A stretch of 64,000 bases of DNA from the human T2T-CHM13v2.0 reference genome, Homo sapiens: NCBI RefSeq assembly GCF_009914755.1, contig NC_060926.1. One strand, 5' to 3'. A program made the position numbers and the translations under genes. The first letter of the stretch is position 1. Each line of letters begins with the position of its first letter. Shown piece by piece: positions 5,087 through 50,703 of this stretch. The notes beneath the pieces are model-generated. The model did not search any database, was not told the DNA's origin, and saw nothing but the letters and a program-made list of their open reading frames with translations.

Positions 5087-5398
<312 letters not shown>

Positions 5399-6051
5399 AA
5401 GACTACACTTTCCTACACACAAAGCCTCTGTGATCTAGTTTAGTGCCAACCTCTCCATAGTCATTTCCTACTCCTTCAACATTGTTTACCCGATCTAATG
5501 TTCTCTGCCTGTATCTTAGTAATTCAAAACCATCAATATTCCAAATATCCTATCATTCCAAAATACTCATGAAATGTAGCAGGCAATGTTATAACCCTGA
5601 GTCTCTGCATATGCCATTTGTTTTCTTGGGCTAGAAAGCTTTATCCCACTATCTCCATCTGATGAATTTCTATCCATCTTTTGAAAATCTCAGGTTAGCT
5701 CTTTTATGAGGCATTCACCAGAATCTCTTTGTGGAATGGTTAATTCCCAACTTTATTTTTCTACAACTTTATGTATTTCTACCTTGATTTTCAGACACTT
5801 TTATGTTTTTGGAACTTACATATTTACCTTTGTAAATATTACCTCTGTCACCCCCCACTGGAGTGTGAACAATTTGAGAGCACGGACTGTGTCTTAATTA
5901 GTTAATATTACTGTTGGTTGAACAGTAGCATGTAGCAAATGAGTCACAGACTTCTGCTGAATTAATATATTAATAAATCTTTTTCTATGGATCTCAGATC
6001 TTTCCCCATTATAATGGAATCAGCTTTGACTAATAGGAAGGATTTGAAAGA

Positions 6052-6790
6052 TGTGTCAGTCCAGGTCCACAGCAGGAAAAAAAGAAAAATAACCACAATG
6101 GTTTAGGGGAGAGAACTTATCAAAGGAACCACCCACAGAGGTGTGGAGAGGGTTCAGGGGACCAATAAGAGATGTTATATCACTCAGTCTCTAGCAACAA
6201 AAGGAGGAAATAATGTTACGAGAACCCAAAAAGAGCTGGAGGCATAGAGAAGGGACTAGAAGCAAAGCAATAGATAAGAAGAGACCAACCCACTGCCAGA
6301 AGCTCATCAGGAAAGCAGACAGAGCAGGAACCTAATACCCTGCCTTCTTTTCTTTCATGTTCCTATCTCCTGCTGGTATCTTTCAGTGGCTGAACCCACT
6401 GAAAAGCCAGCCGTCAGTGGAGTCTGGATGATACCTTCTCTGGAGTCAGCCTTCTGGGGCAAGGAGCAGGGCATTAGAAAAGCCAAAATGTCAAGCAGGA
6501 TGTGGTTAGAAACTAAGAATAAGAAATAGGCTGGGTGTGCTGACTCAAACCTGTAATCCCAGCACTTTGGAAGTCTAAGGCAGGAAGATCGCTTGAGCCC
6601 AGGAATTTAAGGCTGCAATGAGCCATGATCATGCCACTGCACTTCTGCCTGAGCAACAGACGGAGACCCTATCTCAAATAAATAAAATTAGAAAACTACA
6701 ATATTTTTATAAAAGCCAACAAAAAAATTAAAGAAAAAAATTTTAAGGCTGAAATAGACCTGAGTAGGGTAATAAAGAATAACCCACAGG
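6052..6790 (-). mobile_element. Old MLT1 (MaLR) LTR interrupted by an Alu monomer
   Basis: TGTGTCAGTCCAGGTCC...CAGGAAA start, CCTATCTCCTGCTGG...TGGCTGAACCCA...AAGCCAG motif, and an end at GAATAACCCACA. Confidence 0.55.
6529..6687 (+). mobile_element. FRAM-like Alu monomer
   Basis: Single ~150-bp monomer GGCTGGGTG...GATCGCTTGAGCCCAGG...GAGACCCTATCTC plus an A-rich tail. Confidence 0.85.
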
Positions 6791-9132
6791 ACAGATAAGA
6801 AAAACCCATGCAGAAGCGAGAGTTAATATTTGTTGTGCTCTATATTATCCAGACACCAAACTAAGCACTTTATATCATCCCTTTTAATCCTCCTCACAAT
6901 CCTATATTGTAGGCCTATTATTATTTACCCCTCCCAAAATAAAAAGAAACTTAGAGAAACTAAAATAAGTGATCTCAGATCACGCGCAGCTGATAATGCA
7001 CCTACTAGGCCCACCATTGGCTCCCTGTCAGAATTCAAGTTACATTTTATGCATGGGCTAGATTACTTTCTCCAAAGCCCTCCCTCTGGATACGAATTCT
7101 AAAGTGGGTCTCAAATAGAGAAGGGTAGGTGATGTATAACCACACTGCCTTATGATTTCCTTACAATGAATTTTAGCCTAATTCTTAAGTTCGTTGTAGT
7201 CATTGCCTCGTAAATAGAAAAATGAAGAAGAGTTGGTATAGTTAGGGTTTCCATGGCTCACTATTACCATGGCTGCTTCTCTTTACTTCCAAATCCTCCA
7301 CACCAGAACAAAGCAATCTCCCAATATCTTCTATATTTTGTAAAGAAACGCCCATATTAGATTTTAAGCACTCCTTTTCAATGGCTAATGCTTAATTGTT
7401 TGAGCTGCAAGCCATTCCACCTCAATTTCTGGGGTCTAAAAATATAATTAATAGAATATTCATTTCAGTAAAATCTTTCCCAAAACAATACAAAGACTCA
7501 GAGAGTTTGTTTATAAAGAATTTTACATGTGTGTACCTAAGGCTTTTTACATAATTACTGAAGATTTTTACTTAATAATTTAAAAGAAAGACTACTACAG
7601 TTCAGATAAGAGGCACAAGTACAGCTAAGAGATAGTAAATTAAGACCCAGGGGGAAAGTTTGAAGGAAGTGCCATTATGTAGCCTATAAAAGAAAAGTAG
7701 CCAAATAAAGTTGAAATAAAGGTTTCTAAGAATGTGAAATACAGCTAAAGATAGGTGATAAATTCAGCTTAGCCCATCCACCTGTGTGTACAACCCAGTT
7801 CTGGGCACTCTGGAAGATACAAAAGTGGACCAGCTATCACCCCTGCTTAATTAAGATTGGGTGATATCTTCATAGACAAATACCCAAAAATACAAGGTTT
7901 AATAGATGCTTTGTGTGAAGGACATTGATTCCACCATGGAGTTAGTTCATCACTATCTCTTTCCTAGATAACTGTGATAACCTTCCACTCTTGGCCCCTC
8001 ACTAGATAGTATACACAGCAGCTAGAATGATCCTTTAGGACCTAAGTCAGCTCATGTCACTCCTCTGCTCAAAATTCTCCAGTGGGCCCCAGCACAACTT
8101 CTTACCATAGTTTACAAGGCCCTCAGTGATTTGGTCCTTCATTACTTTTCCTGCACTACCTCCTTCATTCTCTTCCTCACTTGCTGCATTCCAGCCTCCC
8201 TTGTCTTCATGCATTTCCTCCTGTTCACCATGTACACTTGGCCTCATGGCATCTGTAGTCGCTATGTTTATTCACTAAATGAATTCTTGGTTTTCATTGT
8301 AAGGGAATGGGCATTATTTGTTGTTTAAACTATTTTTCAAAGGCAGAACTGTTTAAAACATGCCTTAGAAAATCAGTAAGATTTTTGATAGAAAGAAATG
8401 AGAGGAAAATGAGAAAAAGTATCTCAGTATTAAATAGTATTGGTTGAAGGAAAGTATGACTTTAAGAATAATGAAAAATTGAGATTGAAAGGAGCACAGG
8501 ATGTCTAAAGAACAGCAGTGGAGATAAAATTAGGACAGCAAGGTGTAATGGGATTATGGATGACTTTAAATGTCACATTGGGACACTATTTATCAGTAAA
8601 AACTGACTGAATAGTAGCTATTTTTAGAAAATTTAATTTTTCCAACAGCATGCAGAAAAATGTTGGAGGAAAGGGAGATGAAATAGAGAGCCATGGCAGT
8701 AGTTTAGACAAAAGAAAGTAAAGTTCCAAAAAAGGGAGTTGTAGTAAGAACAAAATGAGATTAGGGATTAAAGGAGGATTACAAGGCAAGGGGTAAGAAA
8801 GATAATGCTTTACCCAAAGGATTTGAATGAAAGATCTGATGGGATAATCCAACAAAAATAAACAGCAAATCCTTTTCTGAAGTGGTAGCTCAAGTCTATA
8901 GATTGAACTGAAATTTTTCAAGAAAAAATCTAGACAATCTAGAGTGTTCAAGAACAATCTAGACACAGACCAATAACTGAAAATTCAGAAAAGCCCATAT
9001 TGCTGGAACATATTGGAGAAAATAGGGCAGAGCATGAGATTGGTAACATACAGTCAGAGGGGAAGCAAATGGAGAGTATCCATGGCTGTAGAACCTAAGA
9101 GAGGAGGCTTTCAGCATAAAACAATCAATAGA

Positions 9133-9437
9133 GGTCAGGCGCGGTGGCTGACGCCTGTAATCCCAGCACTTTGGGAGACCGAGGTGGGTGGATCACCTGG
9201 GGTCAGGAGTTCGAGACCAGCCTGGCCAATGTGGTGAAACCCTGTCTCTACTAAAAATACAAAAATCAGCCAGGTGTGGTGGCAGATGCCTGTAGTCCGA
9301 GCTACTAGGAAGAGTGAGGCAGGAGAATCACTTGAACCCAGAGAGGGTGGAGGTTGCAGTGAGCTGAGATCGTGCCATTGCACTCCAGCCTGGGCAATAA
9401 GAGTGAAACTTTGTCTCAAAAAAATAAAAATAAAAAT
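9133..9437 (+). mobile_element. AluSq-type SINE
   Basis: Full Alu. TSD AATCAATAGA at 9123-9132 and 9438-9447. Confidence 0.97.
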
Positions 9438-9784
9438 AATCAATAGAGTCAAATGATATAGAAGAGTCATTGGAATGATACTGGGAAGTCCCAGGATTTG
9501 GCAAGTAAGTTTTCACTGATAAACATTCATGGAGTAGTTTATGTAAAGCGGTGAGGTAATGGTAAAAAGAGCCAGCATTGGAGAAGGTATGAGATGGAAG
9601 TTCACATCAAAGGAATTGCAAAATAAGAGGCAAGAACGTTTTAAATAATAGAACACAGTATCTGACACATAATAAGTAGATGTTCAATAAATACTCGTTG
9701 AATAAATAACTACTTATTTAATAGGGAGACACTGAAGGTAAAATAGAATCATTTCTAAAATTTAGTAGGATGAAAATACAGCAA

Positions 9785-10630
<846 letters not shown>

Positions 10631-26519: not shown

Positions 26520-26836
26520 AAGTGGTCCCCAACCTTTTTGGCCCCAGGGACCAGTTTAGTGGAAGACAATTTTTCCATGGATGAAGGTGGTGGGGGAATG
26601 GATTAGATTCTCATAAGGAGCGTCCAACCTGGATCCCTTGCAGGTTCAGTTCACACTAGGGTTCATGCTCCTATGAGAATCTAATGCCACTGCTGATCTG
26701 ACAGGAGGTGGAGCTCAGGCGGTAATACTCACTGGCCAGCCGCTCACCTCCTGCTGTGTGGTTCGGTTCCTAAGAGCCCACAGATCAGTATGTGTGTGTA
26801 GGGGGGCGGGACGGGGGTCACAGTTGGGGAAACCTG
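26520..26836 (-). mobile_element. MER1B hAT-Charlie MITE
   Basis: GGTCCCCAACCTTTTTGG...GCTCCTATGAGAATCTAATGCC. 8-bp TSD ATGTACAA/GTGTACAA. Confidence 0.9.
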
Positions 26837-27129
26837 GTGTACAAGAATGAGCTTTGCAGTGATTTCAATGTGAAGTCCTATTAATTATTTTTATTGTTTC
26901 TAAAATTATTACAAAGCTGAGAGGAAGCTGAGTTAATTGTTTGAGGTTTCAGGCAATTCTGGACTTTTCTGATTTCTTTGAGGCCAACTGTAGTTCCCTC
27001 AACCCTACCAATGGTTTCGTAGACATAAATTTAATTCTGTAAAATCTCTTCCTGCTGAAAAACTGACAATAGTTTCTGTTTTCCTGCTTAAACCCGAAAT
27101 GATATAAAGGCAGAATAATCAACTCTTGT

Positions 27130-29250
27130 CAATTGCCGCTACTAAATCGGTAAGATAAAGACTGAGTATACACCATCAAATTTACAATGTTGATGCCATT
27201 GATGATCTCGTTGTGACCATTTTCATTGGAATACTATGGAGAAAACATTCTTTGCATGACTTCTATGGAAATGGGAGGATAAAAACCAATTTTGATGAGT
27301 TTTTTATAAAGCAGGGGTCTCCAAGCTGGGGGCAATGAACTGGTACTGGTCTGTGGCTTGTTAGGAACCGGGCTGCACAGCAGGAGATGAGTGGCTGGTG
27401 AGTGAGCATTACCACCTGAACTCTGCCTCCTGTCAGATCAGCAGTGGCATTAGATTCTCATAGAAGCTCAAACCCTATTGTGAACTGTGCATGCAAGGGA
27501 CCTAGGTTACACGCTTCTTATGAGACTCTGACTAATGTCTGATGATCTAAGGTGGAACAGTTTCCTCTCAAAACCATCCCCCCAACCACCCTCCCCCTTG
27601 TCCATGGAAAAATTGTCGTCCACGAAACAGTCCCTGGTGCCAAAAACACTGGGGACTGCTGCTGTACCGGGAAGAATATAATTGCTAATTGGAAGATAAT
27701 GTGGAGTTAGAGGAACATTTTTTGTAGCGGTTATTGTTATTTAAAAGAAACATTAGAACATGTAGGTAATAAGCCAATGTATATAATCCAATAGAGAGGA
27801 GAAACGTACTGATGTCAGAAGGAGAGGGACAGTTGTAAGAAAATACTTTAACAGGAGGGAGATGAGATTGTATGAACAAATGAAGAAGACAGTTCATGGA
27901 CAAATGAAGACTGAAGTCCAAGAACAGTGCATTCAACTTACAGGAGGACAGGTATAGTACATGAGCACCAACACAGCGGGTTTGGTAGATTTGGTAGTGG
28001 GGGCATGTTGAAACTCTTCTGATTGTTTCTGTTGTGTTAATGAAATGAGATGTAACTTCATCAGCTGAAGATGAGGAGAAAAAAAGGTGTTTAAGGCTTG
28101 AGAAAGAAGGAGGACGTGTAAAATAGTCATCTTGGGGAATGGTAGAGTGAATGGACATAAGAAATGTATCTGGATTGAAGAGTGATACTAAGGCTCTGTT
28201 CAGGATAGGAGTCATGAATTAAAGAGAAACATGTTGACGTGTTTGTGTGTTTTTCTCCCAAAATTTCAGCTGCTCTGATATAGAGTTAAAATAGACAGAT
28301 AAATGAACTTAACTGGGGATACCTTTAGCAGCTGAGTTTAAGAAAGGAAAAAAAGGGGCAAGGGATCAATGTGTTGGAAAACAAGTGGTGATAGTAATGG
28401 TTTATGGAACATAAGCTACATAACAAAGGGATTGAGGATATCAGGGGAGGAAGGGTCTAGTGAAAGAAGGCAAGGTCAACTCACAGAAACTCGTGATATG
28501 GCAAAAGAATTACTGGAGTTGGGATAATGGCAGAAAACACAGGGACTGTTGACTAGAGATGTACTGCTATATACGGAGGCTGTGAAAAAGTGACAGTTAT
28601 TGGAAATAGCAAGAGCATTGTTACGGTAGTGGGTATCTACGGTGATGAGTACTACACAGTTATTGAAGACATGTATGTTATGAGTTGATAAGCCAGAATA
28701 TTGGGTAGATCACTTTTGTGAATGTAGAAATCACTAAGGATCAGTAGTGATGTTACTAGTATGAAGTGCAAGAGAATGATCTGGCACTGAAATGTTCAAT
28801 AAATCAGATAACGATTATGAGGAAAGCAGATGATTGCCATTTGGAAATATAGTGTGACATTAGTGTGATAATTGTGTTTCAACATAATTGGAATTTCAGG
28901 GAGGCTAAAGGAGATAGCGCTTGGAAAAAACTATGAGGATCAAAAAGGAGATCAACCCTACCTCTAGGACTAGTTGTACCTGGAATGGTAAGAGAGAGAA
29001 AAAAAAATCATCCATTTGAGAGGGTTACAGAAGTATCAGGGTTCTCAGGAGAGAGCCTAGTTCAGAAGCACAGTTGAGGCTAGTGTGGGATTATAATGGA
29101 TGGGAGATTGAAACAGAACAGGACATATACAAAAGAGCTCAGATAATGAGAGATAATATGAGAATATTGGGTGTGATAAACAGTAACAGAAGATACACAC
29201 CTCACATAACAGCTGATGGTCCCAAGACAGATGATAATCATGGGGAGGCC
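27130..29250 (-). mobile_element. Degenerate L2 ORF2 remnant (boundaries approximate)
   Basis: ORF 27685-28215(-) contains SADEVTSHFINTTETIRR, which resembles the L2 ORF2 motif SADDxASYFxEKIEAIRRE. The plus strand is purine-rich, as expected of antisense L2. Confidence 0.6.
27312..27661 (+). mobile_element. MER1B hAT-Charlie MITE
   Basis: CAGGGGTCTCCAA...CTCCTGTCAGATCAGCAGTGGCATTAGATTCTCATA...GGGGACTGCTG. Confidence 0.9.
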
Positions 29251-45310: not shown

Positions 45311-45671
<361 letters not shown>

Positions 45672-45955
45672 TAAAATATTTCATAGCCTTTTTTGTTTAT
45701 TTGTTATGAAGAAATATAAGCCACTTATACTATACCTATAATATGTTTCAGCTTTGTATTCAGCCTATCTTCTAGTATTCTTTCTGAAGATACTCCTCTT
45801 AGCAACCGCCAATTTCCTTCTCTATGTAGAGTTGGTGTTATTATTGGGATCCTTAGTTATTCTTACCATTTCTTGTATACTCTGTCTTCCTATTTTTTTA
45901 ATCTGCATTTTCTGGAGTTCATGCACAAGAAATAGCTTCAGAAAAAGTTGTTTGT

Positions 45956-46260
45956 GGCCAGGCACCATGGCTCACACCTGTAATCTCTGCACTTTGGGAA
46001 GCCAAGGTGTGCAGATCACTTGAGGCCAGGATTTCTAGACTAGCCTGGACAACATGGTGAGACCCCATCTCTATTAAAAATACAAAGAATTAGCTGGGCA
46101 TAGTGGCACACAGCTATGGTCCTAGGTAATTGGGAGGCTGAGGCGGAAGGATTGCTTGAGCCTCGGGAGCAGAGGTTGCAGTGAGCAGAGATTGCACCAC
46201 TGCACTCTAGCCTGGGTGACAAAGTGAGTGAGACCCTGTCACAAAAAAAGAAAAAAAAAA
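45956..46260 (+). mobile_element. AluJ-type SINE
   Basis: Diverged Alu with GGATTGCTTGAGCC and GTGAGACCCC (J diagnostics). Confidence 0.93.
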
Positions 46261-49539: not shown

Positions 49540-49802
<263 letters not shown>

Positions 49803-50193
49803 ACGAGGTCTATTTTTGCATGTATTGATATTCTATGTTTTAATATTTAATGATTTTTCTATTCTTTTTATTATTTCCCCATAGGGCAGACTTCTAGAGA
49901 AAATAACTCTTCTTAAGCATTTCACATTATTTCTACAGCTTTTCTACTCATCACTCTTCGTTAATTTCTGGGTAATCCTTGTCTTTAGATCAGTGACTCA
50001 CACCTCTTGCTTTCGGCTAAAAAGATTAGAGTAGTTCCGTGGTTTTGCTACCTGTGAACTGAATCATATTTTTGTATTTCACCCACGTTTCTGTTTATAT
50101 CTAAGCTCTGTGAAGCCTTATATCTACCGGATAACTACTTCACAAAATCTTTGCCAAAGGTATCTTATTAGAAACATTTAATCTGCCTTTTTT

Positions 50194-50666
50194 TATAGCT
50201 TCCTGTCATAATTTGTATATTTCTTATTATCTTGCAGATTAACACTAAGGTTTCTCTTGTCCCCTTTTTGTTTGGAATCAGACTAATTACCAGTCTCTGA
50301 AAACAAGCAGGAAAAACGGGTAGCATCTCAGCCAAACTGCAACTAAGAAACTGGAATGATACAATTAACGATGAGCTCATTTTTCTGTTTCTGAGCTCAT
50401 TGTTAGGGTTAAGGTAGGTTTAGGGTTAGGGTAAGAAACTGGAATGAAACAATTAACAATGAGTTCATTATTCTGTTTCTGAGCTCATTGTTAATTGTAT
50501 CATTCCAGTTTCTTACTTGGAGTTTGGCTGAGTTGTTAACGCATTTTTCCTGTTTGTCTTCAGAGTTTGGAAATTAGTCTGACTTCAAACAAAAGAGGGA
50601 CAGGAGAAATCTTAGTGTTAATCTGCAAGACAATAAGAAATATACAAATTATGACCAGAAGCTATA
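50194..50666. repeat. Long inverted repeat (arms 50194-50379 and 50480-50666)
   Basis: Hand alignment of the left arm against the reverse complement of the right arm gives 21 mismatches and 1 gap over 187 bp (~88%). It is mirrored in ORFs 50168(-) and 50567(+), which share NK.GT.E.LVLICK.IRNIQIMT.SY. Confidence 0.97.
50403..50431 (+). repeat. Short interstitial telomeric sequence (~5 units)
   Basis: TTAGGG TTAAGG TAGGT TTAGGG TTAGGG, flanked by 62-bp direct repeats (50344-50405 and 50432-50493). Confidence 0.85.
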
Positions 50667-50668
50667 TT

Positions 50669-50703
50669 AAAACAAAACAAAACAAAACAAAACAAAACAA
50701 AAC
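50669..50703. repeat. (AAAAC)7 microsatellite
   Basis: Direct reading. Confidence 0.95.

What the first reader, a model, noticed from the sequence alone, without database searches (positions are those of the whole stretch)
50344..50493. Telomere repeats inserted at the apex of a palindrome, with a 62-bp target duplication: a fossil of telomere-type break healing
Seen: 62-bp direct repeats (50344-50405 and 50432-50493, 4 mismatches) flank TTAGGG-TTAAGG-TAGGT-TTAGGG-TTAGGG. Each 62-mer equals 36 bp of the left palindrome arm, the 12-nt loop and 14 bp of the right arm, so it is exactly the hairpin tip. The first copy ends ...CATTGTTA and continues GGG, so the break end GTTA is in register with the telomeric repeat. 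The far junction TTAGGG|TAAG also resembles TTAG. Established: short mammalian interstitial telomeric sequences are thought to arise at germline double-strand breaks, often with in-register microhomology and target-site modification including duplication. Hairpin/cruciform tips are cleavage-prone. Inference: a staggered break across an extruded palindrome tip was extended by telomerase (or captured a telomeric fragment) and rejoined, which records cause and repair in 150 bp.
Basis: partly seen in the sequence, partly recalled or inferred. Interest (0 to 1): 0.85.

Follow-up and report, generated by a model that had tools for sequence, protein, structure and literature searches.

The report
Telomere repeats healed a palindrome-tip break
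A one-off DNA palindrome on human chromosome 2 carries a short stretch of chromosome-end (telomere) repeats between two copies of its own tip, which looks like the scar of an old break mended the known way, in an unusual place.

Summary
Two 62-nt direct repeats (50344-50405, 50432-50493; 4 mismatches) flank 26 nt of degenerate TTAGGG repeats. Each 62-mer is 36 nt of left arm, the 12-nt loop and 14 nt of right arm of a palindrome spanning 50188-50672. The first copy ends GTTA, in register with the repeats. The palindrome is single-copy in its own genome, so the transposon or consensus refutation fails. Removing one 88-bp block restores a clean 397-bp palindrome, so a single event into an existing palindrome is the simplest history.

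This fits a class already in print: short interstitial telomeric sequences inserted at double-strand breaks, some with target duplication and in-register microhomology. One of 16 other such sites I examined has a 41-bp duplication, so the long duplication is not unique. None of the 16 lies in a palindrome. The three papers on these insertions that I searched never mention one.

That hairpin or cruciform processing caused the break is plausible but inferred. Supporting hints are weak, and one chance coincidence genome-wide is not excluded. No primate orthologues could be reached, so order and age of events remain untested.

Verdict: a neat new member of a known kind, of moderate interest.

The parts
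50188..50379 (.). Left arm of the palindrome (192 nt, L192..L1).
   Evidence: Inverted pairs I1 and I2; self-alignment; 169 matches, 23 mismatches and 1 gap against the reverse complement of the right arm.
50344..50405 (+). Copy 1 of the 62-nt tip: left-arm positions L36..L1, the 12-nt loop (50380-50391, TTTTTCTGTTTC) and right-arm positions R1..R14 (50392-50405). It ends GTTA.
   Evidence: Family D1 and pair I5; folds with a 14-bp stem, -10.5 kcal/mol, z -5.1.
50406..50431 (+). Telomere-like tract GGGTTAAGGTAGGTTTAGGGTTAGGG. The G-rich strand is on +, in register with GTTA at 50402-50405.
   Evidence: No other copy or local template in the window.
50432..50493 (+). Copy 2 of the 62-nt tip: L36..L1 at 50432-50467, loop at 50468-50479 (TTATTCTGTTTC), R1..R14 at 50480-50493.
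   Evidence: Family D1 and pair I3; the 86-nt hairpin 50431-50516 folds at -33 kcal/mol, z -15.4.
50480..50672 (.). Right arm of the palindrome (193 nt, R1..R193). R15 onward (50494-) follows copy 2 directly.
   Evidence: the whole 485 nt folds at -162.8 kcal/mol, z -26.9.
50669..50703 (+). (AAAAC)7 microsatellite at the outer right border of the palindrome. A T7 run lies at the outer left border (50188-50194). Context only, not part of the event.
   Evidence: period 5, 7 copies, 100% matches.

Best explanation
What it is: a single-copy quasi-palindrome of about 397 bp (arms 192 and 193 nt, 12-nt spacer) in a gene desert. It suffered one repair event that inserted 88 bp: a second copy of its 62-bp tip plus about four telomeric repeats between the two copies. 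This makes it a short interstitial telomeric sequence of the break-repair type, with a target duplication.

How it most likely arose:
1. The tip region broke so that both ends kept the tip. The + strand of the left end ran to R14 (...CATTGTTA-3'). The right end reached back to L36.
2. That is equivalent to 62-nt 3' overhangs. It could also arise from two hairpin-capped ends, made by cutting a cruciform at its base, one of which was trimmed back to R14.
3. Telomerase aligned on GTTA and added GGGTTAGGG... to that 3' end.
4. The single strands were filled in and the ends were rejoined by end joining.
5. Later the two copies gained 4 differences, and the tract gained 2 substitutions and 1 deletion.

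Shown: the anatomy, single-copy status, the register and orientation of the tract, and that one 88-bp block accounts for everything.

Inferred: that a break occurred, that telomerase acted rather than fragment capture, the polarity of the ends, and that the hairpin or cruciform caused the break.
For: 1. Anatomy. The duplication, tract and palindrome are as described.

2. One event. Removing either 88-bp block leaves a 397-bp palindrome with one 12-nt loop.

3. Internal empty-site proxy. The left arm is continuous across L14/L15, and the right arm is continuous across R14|R15 after copy 2 (GTTA|ATTG).

4. Not a repeat family.
- The 485-bp palindrome, its outer left arm and its tip region match only this locus in the 3.1-Gb genome, with 1, 2 and 1 first-look candidates.
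- The right flank is unique.
- The same tool found 6857 candidates for an Alu-like stretch in the left flank, with scored matches down to 71% identity.
- Arms 88% alike imply that any family of the same age would be detectable.

5. Telomeric nature of the tract.
- The only TTAGGGTTAGGG in 64 kb, against 0.005 expected.
- The G-strand continues 5'->3' from a target 3' end.
- There are 4 nt in register. GTTA is present at the end of both copies, so it belonged to the target. Its probability by composition is 0.006.
- Published data: 4 or more in-register nt occur at 15-20% of informative insertion sites against <=0.39% expected. Duplication occurs at 4 of 25 primate, 6 of 130 rodent and 3 of 66 horse loci (PMC2246262 and PMC7215372, passages).

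6. A same-genome analogue. The site at C2:181.766 Mb has a 41-bp flanking duplication.

7. Hints that structure mattered.
- The duplicated block contains the loop.
- The tip hairpin is very stable (-33 kcal/mol).
- The left border of the duplication (50343|50344) abuts the first arm mismatch outside a 36-bp near-perfect inner stem (distances from the loop: 10, then 37, 41...). That is where branch migration of a cruciform would stall.
- In yeast, Alu quasi-palindromes with a 12-bp spacer give hairpin-capped breaks (PMC8053094, passages).
- Human palindromic AT-rich repeats break at their centre by cruciform cleavage plus cleavage of the hairpin tip (PMC4940405, passages).
Against: - No orthologous locus was seen, so neither an empty site nor the order of events is demonstrated.
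- The dating is weak. Arms differ at 23 of 192 positions and the copies at 4 of 62. These are not significantly different (Fisher p = 0.34, or 0.16 using the outer arms only).
- The tract carries 3 changes in about 30 nt. The divergence between copies predicts about 1 (my arithmetic).
- GTTA microhomology fits microhomology-mediated capture of a telomeric fragment as well as it fits telomerase.
- The 3' end GTTA lies inside a 14-bp stem, which is a poor single-stranded primer unless it melts.
- The low mismatch count in the inner 36 nt is only marginal (P = 0.036 hypergeometric; Fisher p = 0.084). Other long perfect runs exist in the arms.
- Look-elsewhere effect. With at most one such palindrome per 64 kb, and 100-250 insertion sites, 0.13-0.33 chance coincidences are expected genome-wide.
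- 0 of 16 other sites lies at a palindrome, so there is no sign of a general rule.
- Cruciform extrusion across a 12-nt spacer is unfavourable (recalled, not tested here).
Confidence: 0.6

Rival explanations
1. Same repair event, but the palindrome is a bystander. An ordinary break with long overhangs happened to fall near the tip, and secondary structure played no part.
For: - Long duplications occur at such sites without any palindrome: 41 bp at C2:181.766 Mb, palindrome score 8.
- Chance expectation is 0.13-0.33 such coincidences genome-wide.
- 0 of 16 other sites lies at a palindrome.
- The duplicated block is off-centre, reaching 42 nt to one side of the symmetry centre and 20 nt to the other.
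Against: - The block spans the loop.
- One border abuts the first mismatch outside the 36-bp near-perfect stem.
- Breakage at palindrome centres and tips is known experimentally.
- This is the only close-spaced palindrome in the 64 kb.
Confidence: 0.22
2. The telomeric tract was not made by telomerase on the spot. A telomeric DNA fragment, or a copy templated in trans, was captured between the two ends using GTTA microhomology (alternative end joining).
For: - A 4-nt microhomology is typical of microhomology-mediated joining.
- The tract is more degenerate than its age predicts: 2 substitutions and 1 deletion. That would fit a variant-rich source.
- The literature keeps capture open as an alternative (PMC2246262, background passage).
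Against: - The published excess of in-register nucleotides, and insertions of telomerase-RNA sequence in rodents, point to telomerase for this class.
- No template for the irregular part exists in the window.
- The sequence here cannot separate the two mechanisms.
Confidence: 0.2
3. A replication or synthesis-dependent error rather than a two-ended break. A nascent strand copied through the loop and 14 nt into the right arm. It then folded back or dissociated, was extended with telomeric repeats, and was joined 62 nt upstream. This is template switching or aborted strand annealing at a hairpin.
For: - The 3' end lies just past the loop, where a nascent hairpin with a 14-bp stem can form.
- Palindromes stall replication forks (PMC8053094, passages).
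Against: - There is no microhomology at the second junction to re-prime synthesis. GGG|TAAG has at most 1 nt, and only if L37 was once G.
- Telomerase still needs a free 3' end.
- The product is the one expected from end joining.
Confidence: 0.1
4. The arrangement belongs to a transposon, a miniature inverted-repeat element or another multi-copy consensus. Alternatively, the G-rich tract grew gradually as a microsatellite.
For: - The outer ends read TA|TAGC...GCTA|TA, so a TA target duplication cannot be excluded.
- Very old families, with pairwise identity below about 70%, would escape the search used.
Against: - Only self-matches in the whole genome, with a working positive control.
- Arms 88% alike imply an age at which sister copies would be found.
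- Rfam gives only sub-threshold generic hairpin matches: 14 matches, best 42 bits against a gathering score of 119.
- A microsatellite origin does not explain the exact 62-nt duplication on both sides.
Confidence: 0.03

Closest known systems
[quoted passage not shown] 2007, PMC2246262; Santagostino et al. 2020, PMC7215372; Nergadze et al. 2004, not held, known only from citation)
   Same: - A few TTAGGG units in one orientation at an internal site.
- An abrupt insertion.
- Target-site duplication, reported for 4 of 25 primate loci.
[quoted passage not shown]
   Different: - It lies at the apex of a long palindrome, and the duplicated target is the hairpin tip.
- The words palindrome, hairpin and cruciform do not occur in the three papers I could search.
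- The tract is short and degenerate, with only 2 perfect units.
The interstitial telomeric sequence at C2:181,765,9xx of the same genome (locus L019)
   Same: It has the layout copy - GGG(TTAGGG)n - copy, with a long 41-bp direct duplication carrying 1 mismatch.
   Different: - No palindrome nearby (score 8).
- No in-register nucleotides at the left junction (...AACCC|GGG).
- A longer and cleaner array of about 11 units.
Palindromic AT-rich repeats (PATRRs) behind recurrent human translocations such as t(11;22) (review PMC4940405)
   Same: - A break within the central part of a palindrome several hundred bp long, followed by end joining.
- The proposed route is cruciform cleavage followed by cleavage of the hairpin tip.
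   Different: - PATRR junctions show small deletions at the centre and join two chromosomes. Here the tip is duplicated, the same locus is rejoined, and telomeric repeats are added.
- The arms here are 88% alike with a 12-nt spacer, and GC is about 35%, similar to the surroundings. It is not a near-perfect, highly AT-rich palindrome.
Hairpin-capped breaks at Alu quasi-palindromes in yeast (PMC8053094), and de novo telomere addition (chromosome healing)
   Same: - Inverted repeats with a 12-bp spacer give hairpin-capped breaks that must be opened and processed.
- Healing by telomerase is favoured by 1-5 nt of telomere-like sequence at the 3' end (PMC2246262).
   Different: - Those are experimental yeast systems that end in loss of a chromosome arm or in inverted dimers.
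- Here only about 4 repeats were added and the two ends were rejoined in a primate germline.
P-nucleotide addition in V(D)J joining: off-centre opening of a hairpin-capped end (recalled, not looked up)
   Same: Opening a hairpin away from its apex leaves sequence from both strands at one end. This gives palindromic extra bases, which is the logic by which both ends here could carry the tip.
   Different: The scale differs (1-4 nt against 62 nt). There is no RAG-type site here. This is an analogy only.

Membership tests
Short interstitial telomeric sequence of the break-repair type | At least four TTAGGG-like units, fewer than one mismatch per unit, in one orientation, at a non-terminal and non-subtelomeric site (criterion quoted in PMC2246262) | tested here: met
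   Counting the target's TTA there are 5 units with 2 substitutions and 1 deletion. Tandem Repeats Finder gives 5.3 copies. Position is chr2:49.84 Mb of a 242.7-Mb contig. The case is borderline: only 2 units are perfect.
Short interstitial telomeric sequence of the break-repair type | Abrupt insertion relative to an empty orthologous locus | not testable with these tools
   No primate or other mammalian genome is reachable. As an internal proxy only, the symmetric partner arm and the second copy show that GTTA|ATTG was once contiguous.
Short interstitial telomeric sequence of the break-repair type | Flank modification typical of end joining (none, deletion, addition or duplication) | tested here: met
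   A 62-nt direct duplication lies immediately on both sides of the tract.
Short interstitial telomeric sequence of the break-repair type | [quoted passage not shown] | tested here: met
   GTTA ends both copies and is in phase with the following GGGTTA....
Transposon, miniature inverted-repeat element or other interspersed repeat family | Multiple related copies in the genome | tested here: not met
   Only self-matches. Positive control: 6857 candidates for the neighbouring Alu-like stretch.
Transposon, miniature inverted-repeat element or other interspersed repeat family | Terminal inverted repeats bounded by a target-site duplication | tested here: inconclusive
   The whole element is an inverted repeat. 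The flanking TA/TA is itself palindromic and so uninformative. No 4- or 8-bp duplication is seen at 50178-50187 versus 50673-50682.
PATRR-like fragile palindrome | Near-perfect, spacer-less, strongly AT-rich palindrome of several hundred bp | tested here: not met
   Arms are 88% alike with a 12-nt spacer. GC is 0.32-0.36, close to the surroundings. Only the inner 36 bp is near-perfect.
microRNA or other structured RNA gene | Match to an Rfam family at its gathering score | tested here: not met
   14 matches with E <= 1, all far below gathering: best is 42 bits against 119. These are generic long-hairpin matches.

The most novel reading that the evidence does not exclude
The locus is a natural record of cruciform processing in a primate germline. 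The cruciform extruded up to the first arm mismatch and was cut at that junction, which is the left border of the duplication. One hairpin end was trimmed to ...GTTA-3' and healed by telomerase, and the ends were then recaptured. If so, structure-induced breaks at ordinary, non-PATRR palindromes are one source of interstitial telomeric sequences. Tip duplications would then be their signature, the large-scale counterpart of P-nucleotides.
Probability: 0.2. Interest if true: 0.7.

Novelty: new member of a known kind. Interest (0 to 1): 0.42.

Why it matters
What starts the germline breaks that become interstitial telomeric sequences is not known. Whether hairpins or cruciforms form and are cut in vivo at ordinary mammalian palindromes is still debated (PMC4940405). 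This locus keeps both a candidate cause (the palindrome tip) and the repair (telomeric repeats plus tip duplication) within 150 bp. That gives a concrete, datable case which comparative genomics can settle quickly. It also defines a signature, telomeric repeats between duplicated hairpin tips, that can be searched for genome-wide. On its own it is one locus in a gene desert, with no sign of function.

Tried and rejected
1. Multi-copy repeat or transposon. Whole-genome searches with the palindrome, the outer arm, the tip region and both flanks found only this locus. Rejected.

2. Structured RNA or microRNA. Rfam gave only sub-threshold hairpin matches. Rejected.

3. Local template for the irregular part of the tract. 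None in the window at <=2 mismatches for the 14-mer or <=6 for the 26-mer.

4. Complete genome-wide list of interstitial telomeric sequences.
- The plain (TTAGGG)4 pattern gave 15,670 matches, and only the first 100 were listed, all in the chromosome 1 telomere.
- I fell back on five boundary-anchored patterns. They yield a small, non-random sample of 16 interstitial loci.
- That sample would not have caught the window's own degenerate tract.

5. Published catalogues. I cannot say whether this locus is already listed.

6. Earlier findings of this scan were not open.

7. Internal tree of the three inner-arm copies. All differences are private to one copy, so it gives no resolution on which copy is original.

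8. G-quadruplex or self-structure of the tract. It does not fold as a simple hairpin (0 kcal/mol), and it has only three GGG runs.

Full report
**Observation**

- Two 62-nt direct repeats lie at 50344-50405 and 50432-50493. They differ at 4 positions (17, 27, 33 and 39).
- The repeat does not extend further on either side.
- Between the copies lie 26 nt, GGGTTAAGGTAGGTTTAGGGTTAGGG (50406-50431).
- Tandem Repeats Finder reports a period-6 array of 5.3 copies at 50402-50432. That span includes the last four bases (GTTA) of copy 1.
- GTTA plus the tract aligns to a perfect 31-nt telomeric array with 2 substitutions and 1 deletion.

**The palindrome**

The duplication sits inside a long inverted repeat, 50188-50672.
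- Taking out one 88-bp block (one 62-mer plus the tract) leaves 397 bp. That is a 192-nt left arm, a 12-nt loop and a 193-nt right arm.
- The arms show 169 matches, 23 mismatches (14 of them transitions) and 1 gap column. This gives p = 0.12 and a Jukes-Cantor distance of 0.13.
- Each 62-mer is L36..L1, the loop and R1..R14.
- As single-stranded DNA the 62-mer forms a 14-bp stem (-10.5 kcal/mol, z -5.1). The 86-nt tip 50431-50516 forms a 37-bp stem (-33 kcal/mol, z -15.4). The present 485 nt folds at -162.8 kcal/mol (z -26.9).
- GC is 0.32-0.36, like the surroundings.

**Is it a repeat family?**

- Against the window's own 3.1-Gb genome, the whole palindrome found only itself and its own reverse strand, with 1 first-look candidate.
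- The outer left arm found itself and the right arm, with 2 candidates.
- The tip region found only this locus, with 1 candidate.
- The 897-bp right flank is unique.
- The 888-bp left flank holds an Alu-like stretch (window 49572-49802). It drew 6857 candidates, 40 of them scored, with matches down to 71% identity. The tool therefore does see interspersed repeats.
- The arms are 88% alike, so a family of the same age would have copies at least as similar. They would have been found.
- A very old repeat fragment inside each arm cannot be excluded without Dfam. That would not affect the finding.
- Rfam gave 14 matches at E <= 1. All are generic microRNA hairpin families far below gathering score, the best at 42 bits against 119.

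**Is the tract telomeric, and is it chance?**

- TTAGGGTTAGGG occurs once in the 64 kb, against 0.005 expected from composition. It lies exactly between the two copies.
- No other copy of the 26-mer (<=6 mismatches) or of its irregular 14-nt core (<=2 mismatches) exists in the window. A local template is therefore unlikely.
- The G-rich strand runs 5'->3' onward from the end of copy 1.
- GTTA also ends copy 2. It therefore belonged to the target and not to the insert, and it is in phase with the repeats. Its probability by composition is 0.006.

**One event, and its order**

- A single 88-bp insertion into an existing palindrome explains all features.
- The 62-mer contains parts of both arms and the loop in direct orientation, so the palindrome must have existed when the 62-mer was copied.
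- The symmetric partner arm serves as an internal empty site. L14/L15 is contiguous in the left arm, and R14|R15 (GTTA|ATTG) is contiguous after copy 2.
- The copies differ at 4 of 62 positions (6.5%, 95% CI 1.8-16%). The arms differ at 23 of 192 (12%, CI 7.7-17%).
- The direction agrees with the palindrome being older, but the difference is not significant (Fisher p = 0.34, or 0.16 for the outer arms).
- Set against recalled primate divergences, the event would fall roughly around the catarrhine ancestor. The uncertainty is wide.
- All differences among the three versions of the inner arm are private to one version. The inner 36 bp was therefore perfect, or nearly so, when it was duplicated.

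**Hints that structure mattered**

- Mismatches between the arms lie at distances 10, 37, 41, 54 and onward from the loop.
- The inner 36 nt, exactly the duplicated part of the left arm, has 1 mismatch. The outer 156 nt has 22 mismatches and a gap.
- This contrast is marginal (hypergeometric P = 0.036; Fisher p = 0.084). Other perfect runs of 20-24 nt occur in the arms.
- The left border of the duplication, 50343|50344, abuts the first outer mismatch (L37). That is where a cruciform would stop extruding and where a junction-cutting nuclease would nick.
- Base 50431 (G), just before copy 2, pairs with R37 (pair I3). The duplication may therefore be 63 nt, with L37 having changed later. This ambiguity cannot be resolved here.

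**Mechanism**

The product requires a left end whose + strand reaches R14 (...GTTA-3') and a right end that reaches back to L36. Three geometries give this.
- Nicks 62 nt apart that leave 3' overhangs.
- The same nicks leaving 5' overhangs that are then filled in.
- Cutting a cruciform at its base so that each end is capped by one hairpin. The left cap is then trimmed or opened at R14. Only the cut orientation that leaves the + strand hairpin on the left end keeps both loops in the observed direct orientation.

The G-strand then continues in register from GTTA. This is what telomerase does at a 3' end with 1-5 nt of telomere-like sequence (PMC2246262, passages). The second junction (GGG|TAAG) has no useful homology, which points to end joining rather than template switching.

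None of these steps can be told apart from the sequence alone. Telomerase also cannot be separated from microhomology-mediated capture of a telomeric fragment. The tract carries 3 changes where about 1 is expected from the divergence of the copies (my arithmetic), which leaves room for a variant-rich source.

**Comparison with other sites in the same genome**

- Five boundary-anchored patterns gave 9, 56, 35, 44 and 19 matches. Most lie in telomeres or subtelomeres.
- I kept 16 loci that lie far from chromosome ends: L007, L008, L009, L010, L012, L014, L019, L032, L056, L066, L076, L077, L078, L080, L098 and L099.
- I dropped telomeric and subtelomeric hits, including L011, L013, L015, L023, the chr18p and chr20p hits, and C12:101 kb.
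- The scoring was simple: ungapped, +1 per match and -2 per mismatch, 150-nt flanks, loop <=40.
- 1 of 16 has a long flanking duplication. This is L019 at C2:181.766 Mb, with 41 bp and 1 mismatch around GGG(TTAGGG)10TTAGTG.
- 0 of 16 has a palindrome scoring 10 or more within 150 bp.
- The window locus scores 50 for the duplication and 31 for the palindrome.
- The sample is small and not random. Its patterns need 3-4 perfect units, so they would have missed the window's own tract.

**Literature**

- Insertion of telomeric repeats at break sites is established, with unmodified, deleted, extended or duplicated flanks. Duplication occurred at 4 of 25 primate and 6 of 130 rodent loci (PMC2246262, Table 1) and at 3 of 66 horse loci, attributed there to staggered breaks (PMC7215372).
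- Four or more in-register nucleotides were seen at 15-20% of informative loci, against <=0.39% expected.
- The words palindrome, hairpin and cruciform occur 0 times in PMC2246262, PMC7215372 and PMC8537989.
- Two full-text searches combining interstitial telomeric sequences with palindrome, cruciform, hairpin or inverted-repeat terms listed no paper on the link. I read only the listings and abstract starts.
- I could not see the supplementary catalogues or Nergadze 2004. The locus may already be listed there.
- Palindrome breakage has experimental backing. Human palindromic AT-rich repeats break at their centre by cruciform cleavage plus hairpin-tip cleavage, with Artemis and ligase IV (PMC4940405, passages).
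- Yeast Alu quasi-palindromes with a 12-bp spacer give hairpin-capped breaks (PMC8053094, passages).

**Chance**

The window holds one close-spaced palindrome apart from an (AT)n run. Taking that as an upper bound of one per 64 kb, a random insertion point falls within 42 nt of such a centre with probability 0.0013. With 100-250 insertion sites, that gives 0.13-0.33 expected coincidences genome-wide. One chance case is therefore not excluded.

**Verdict**

- The reading as a break-repair insertion of telomeric repeats with target duplication is well supported by everything that could be tested here. It belongs to a known class.
- What is new is the place, the apex of a single-copy palindrome, and the idea that the tip structure caused the break. 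That idea is plausible but rests on one locus and marginal statistics.
- The decisive test, orthologous loci, could not be run with these tools.

Noticed in passing
window 49572-49802: An Alu-like stretch of about 231 nt, about 385 bp upstream of the palindrome. It drew 6857 first-look candidates in the genome, with best matches 95% identical. I used it only as a positive control.
   Followed up: partly
window 50669-50703 and 50188-50194: The outer ends of the palindrome run into A/T-rich simple sequence: a perfect (AAAAC)7 on the right and a T7 run on the left. This may bear on how the inverted duplication itself arose.
   Followed up: no
window 26536-27646; 45367-46191; 9132-10438; 5320-6607: Other inverted repeats with wide spacers of 351-1177 nt and arms 65-186 nt long at 73-94% identity. 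The pair at 9132-10438 looks like two inverted Alu elements (name recalled, not tested).
   Followed up: no
L019 (G000:C2:181765829-181766088): An interstitial telomeric array, GGG(TTAGGG)10TTAGTG, flanked by a 41-bp direct duplication with 1 mismatch. There is no palindrome nearby. It is a clean example of a long target duplication at such a site.
   Followed up: partly
L007 (G000:C1:10983128-10983154): A short C-strand telomeric motif (AACCCTAAAC) abuts a TTAGGG array head to head. More degenerate TTGGGG/TTAGGG units follow.
   Followed up: no
G000:C18:56071, 110069, 164108: Three identical telomere-repeat boundary matches spaced about 54 kb apart near the chromosome 18 short-arm end. This suggests a tandemly duplicated subtelomeric block.
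   Followed up: no
window 50343 and 50431: The base before copy 1 is C, a mismatch with the right arm. The base before copy 2 is G, which pairs with the right arm (pair I3). The duplication may therefore have been 63 nt, with the last G of the tract belonging to the target.
   Followed up: partly
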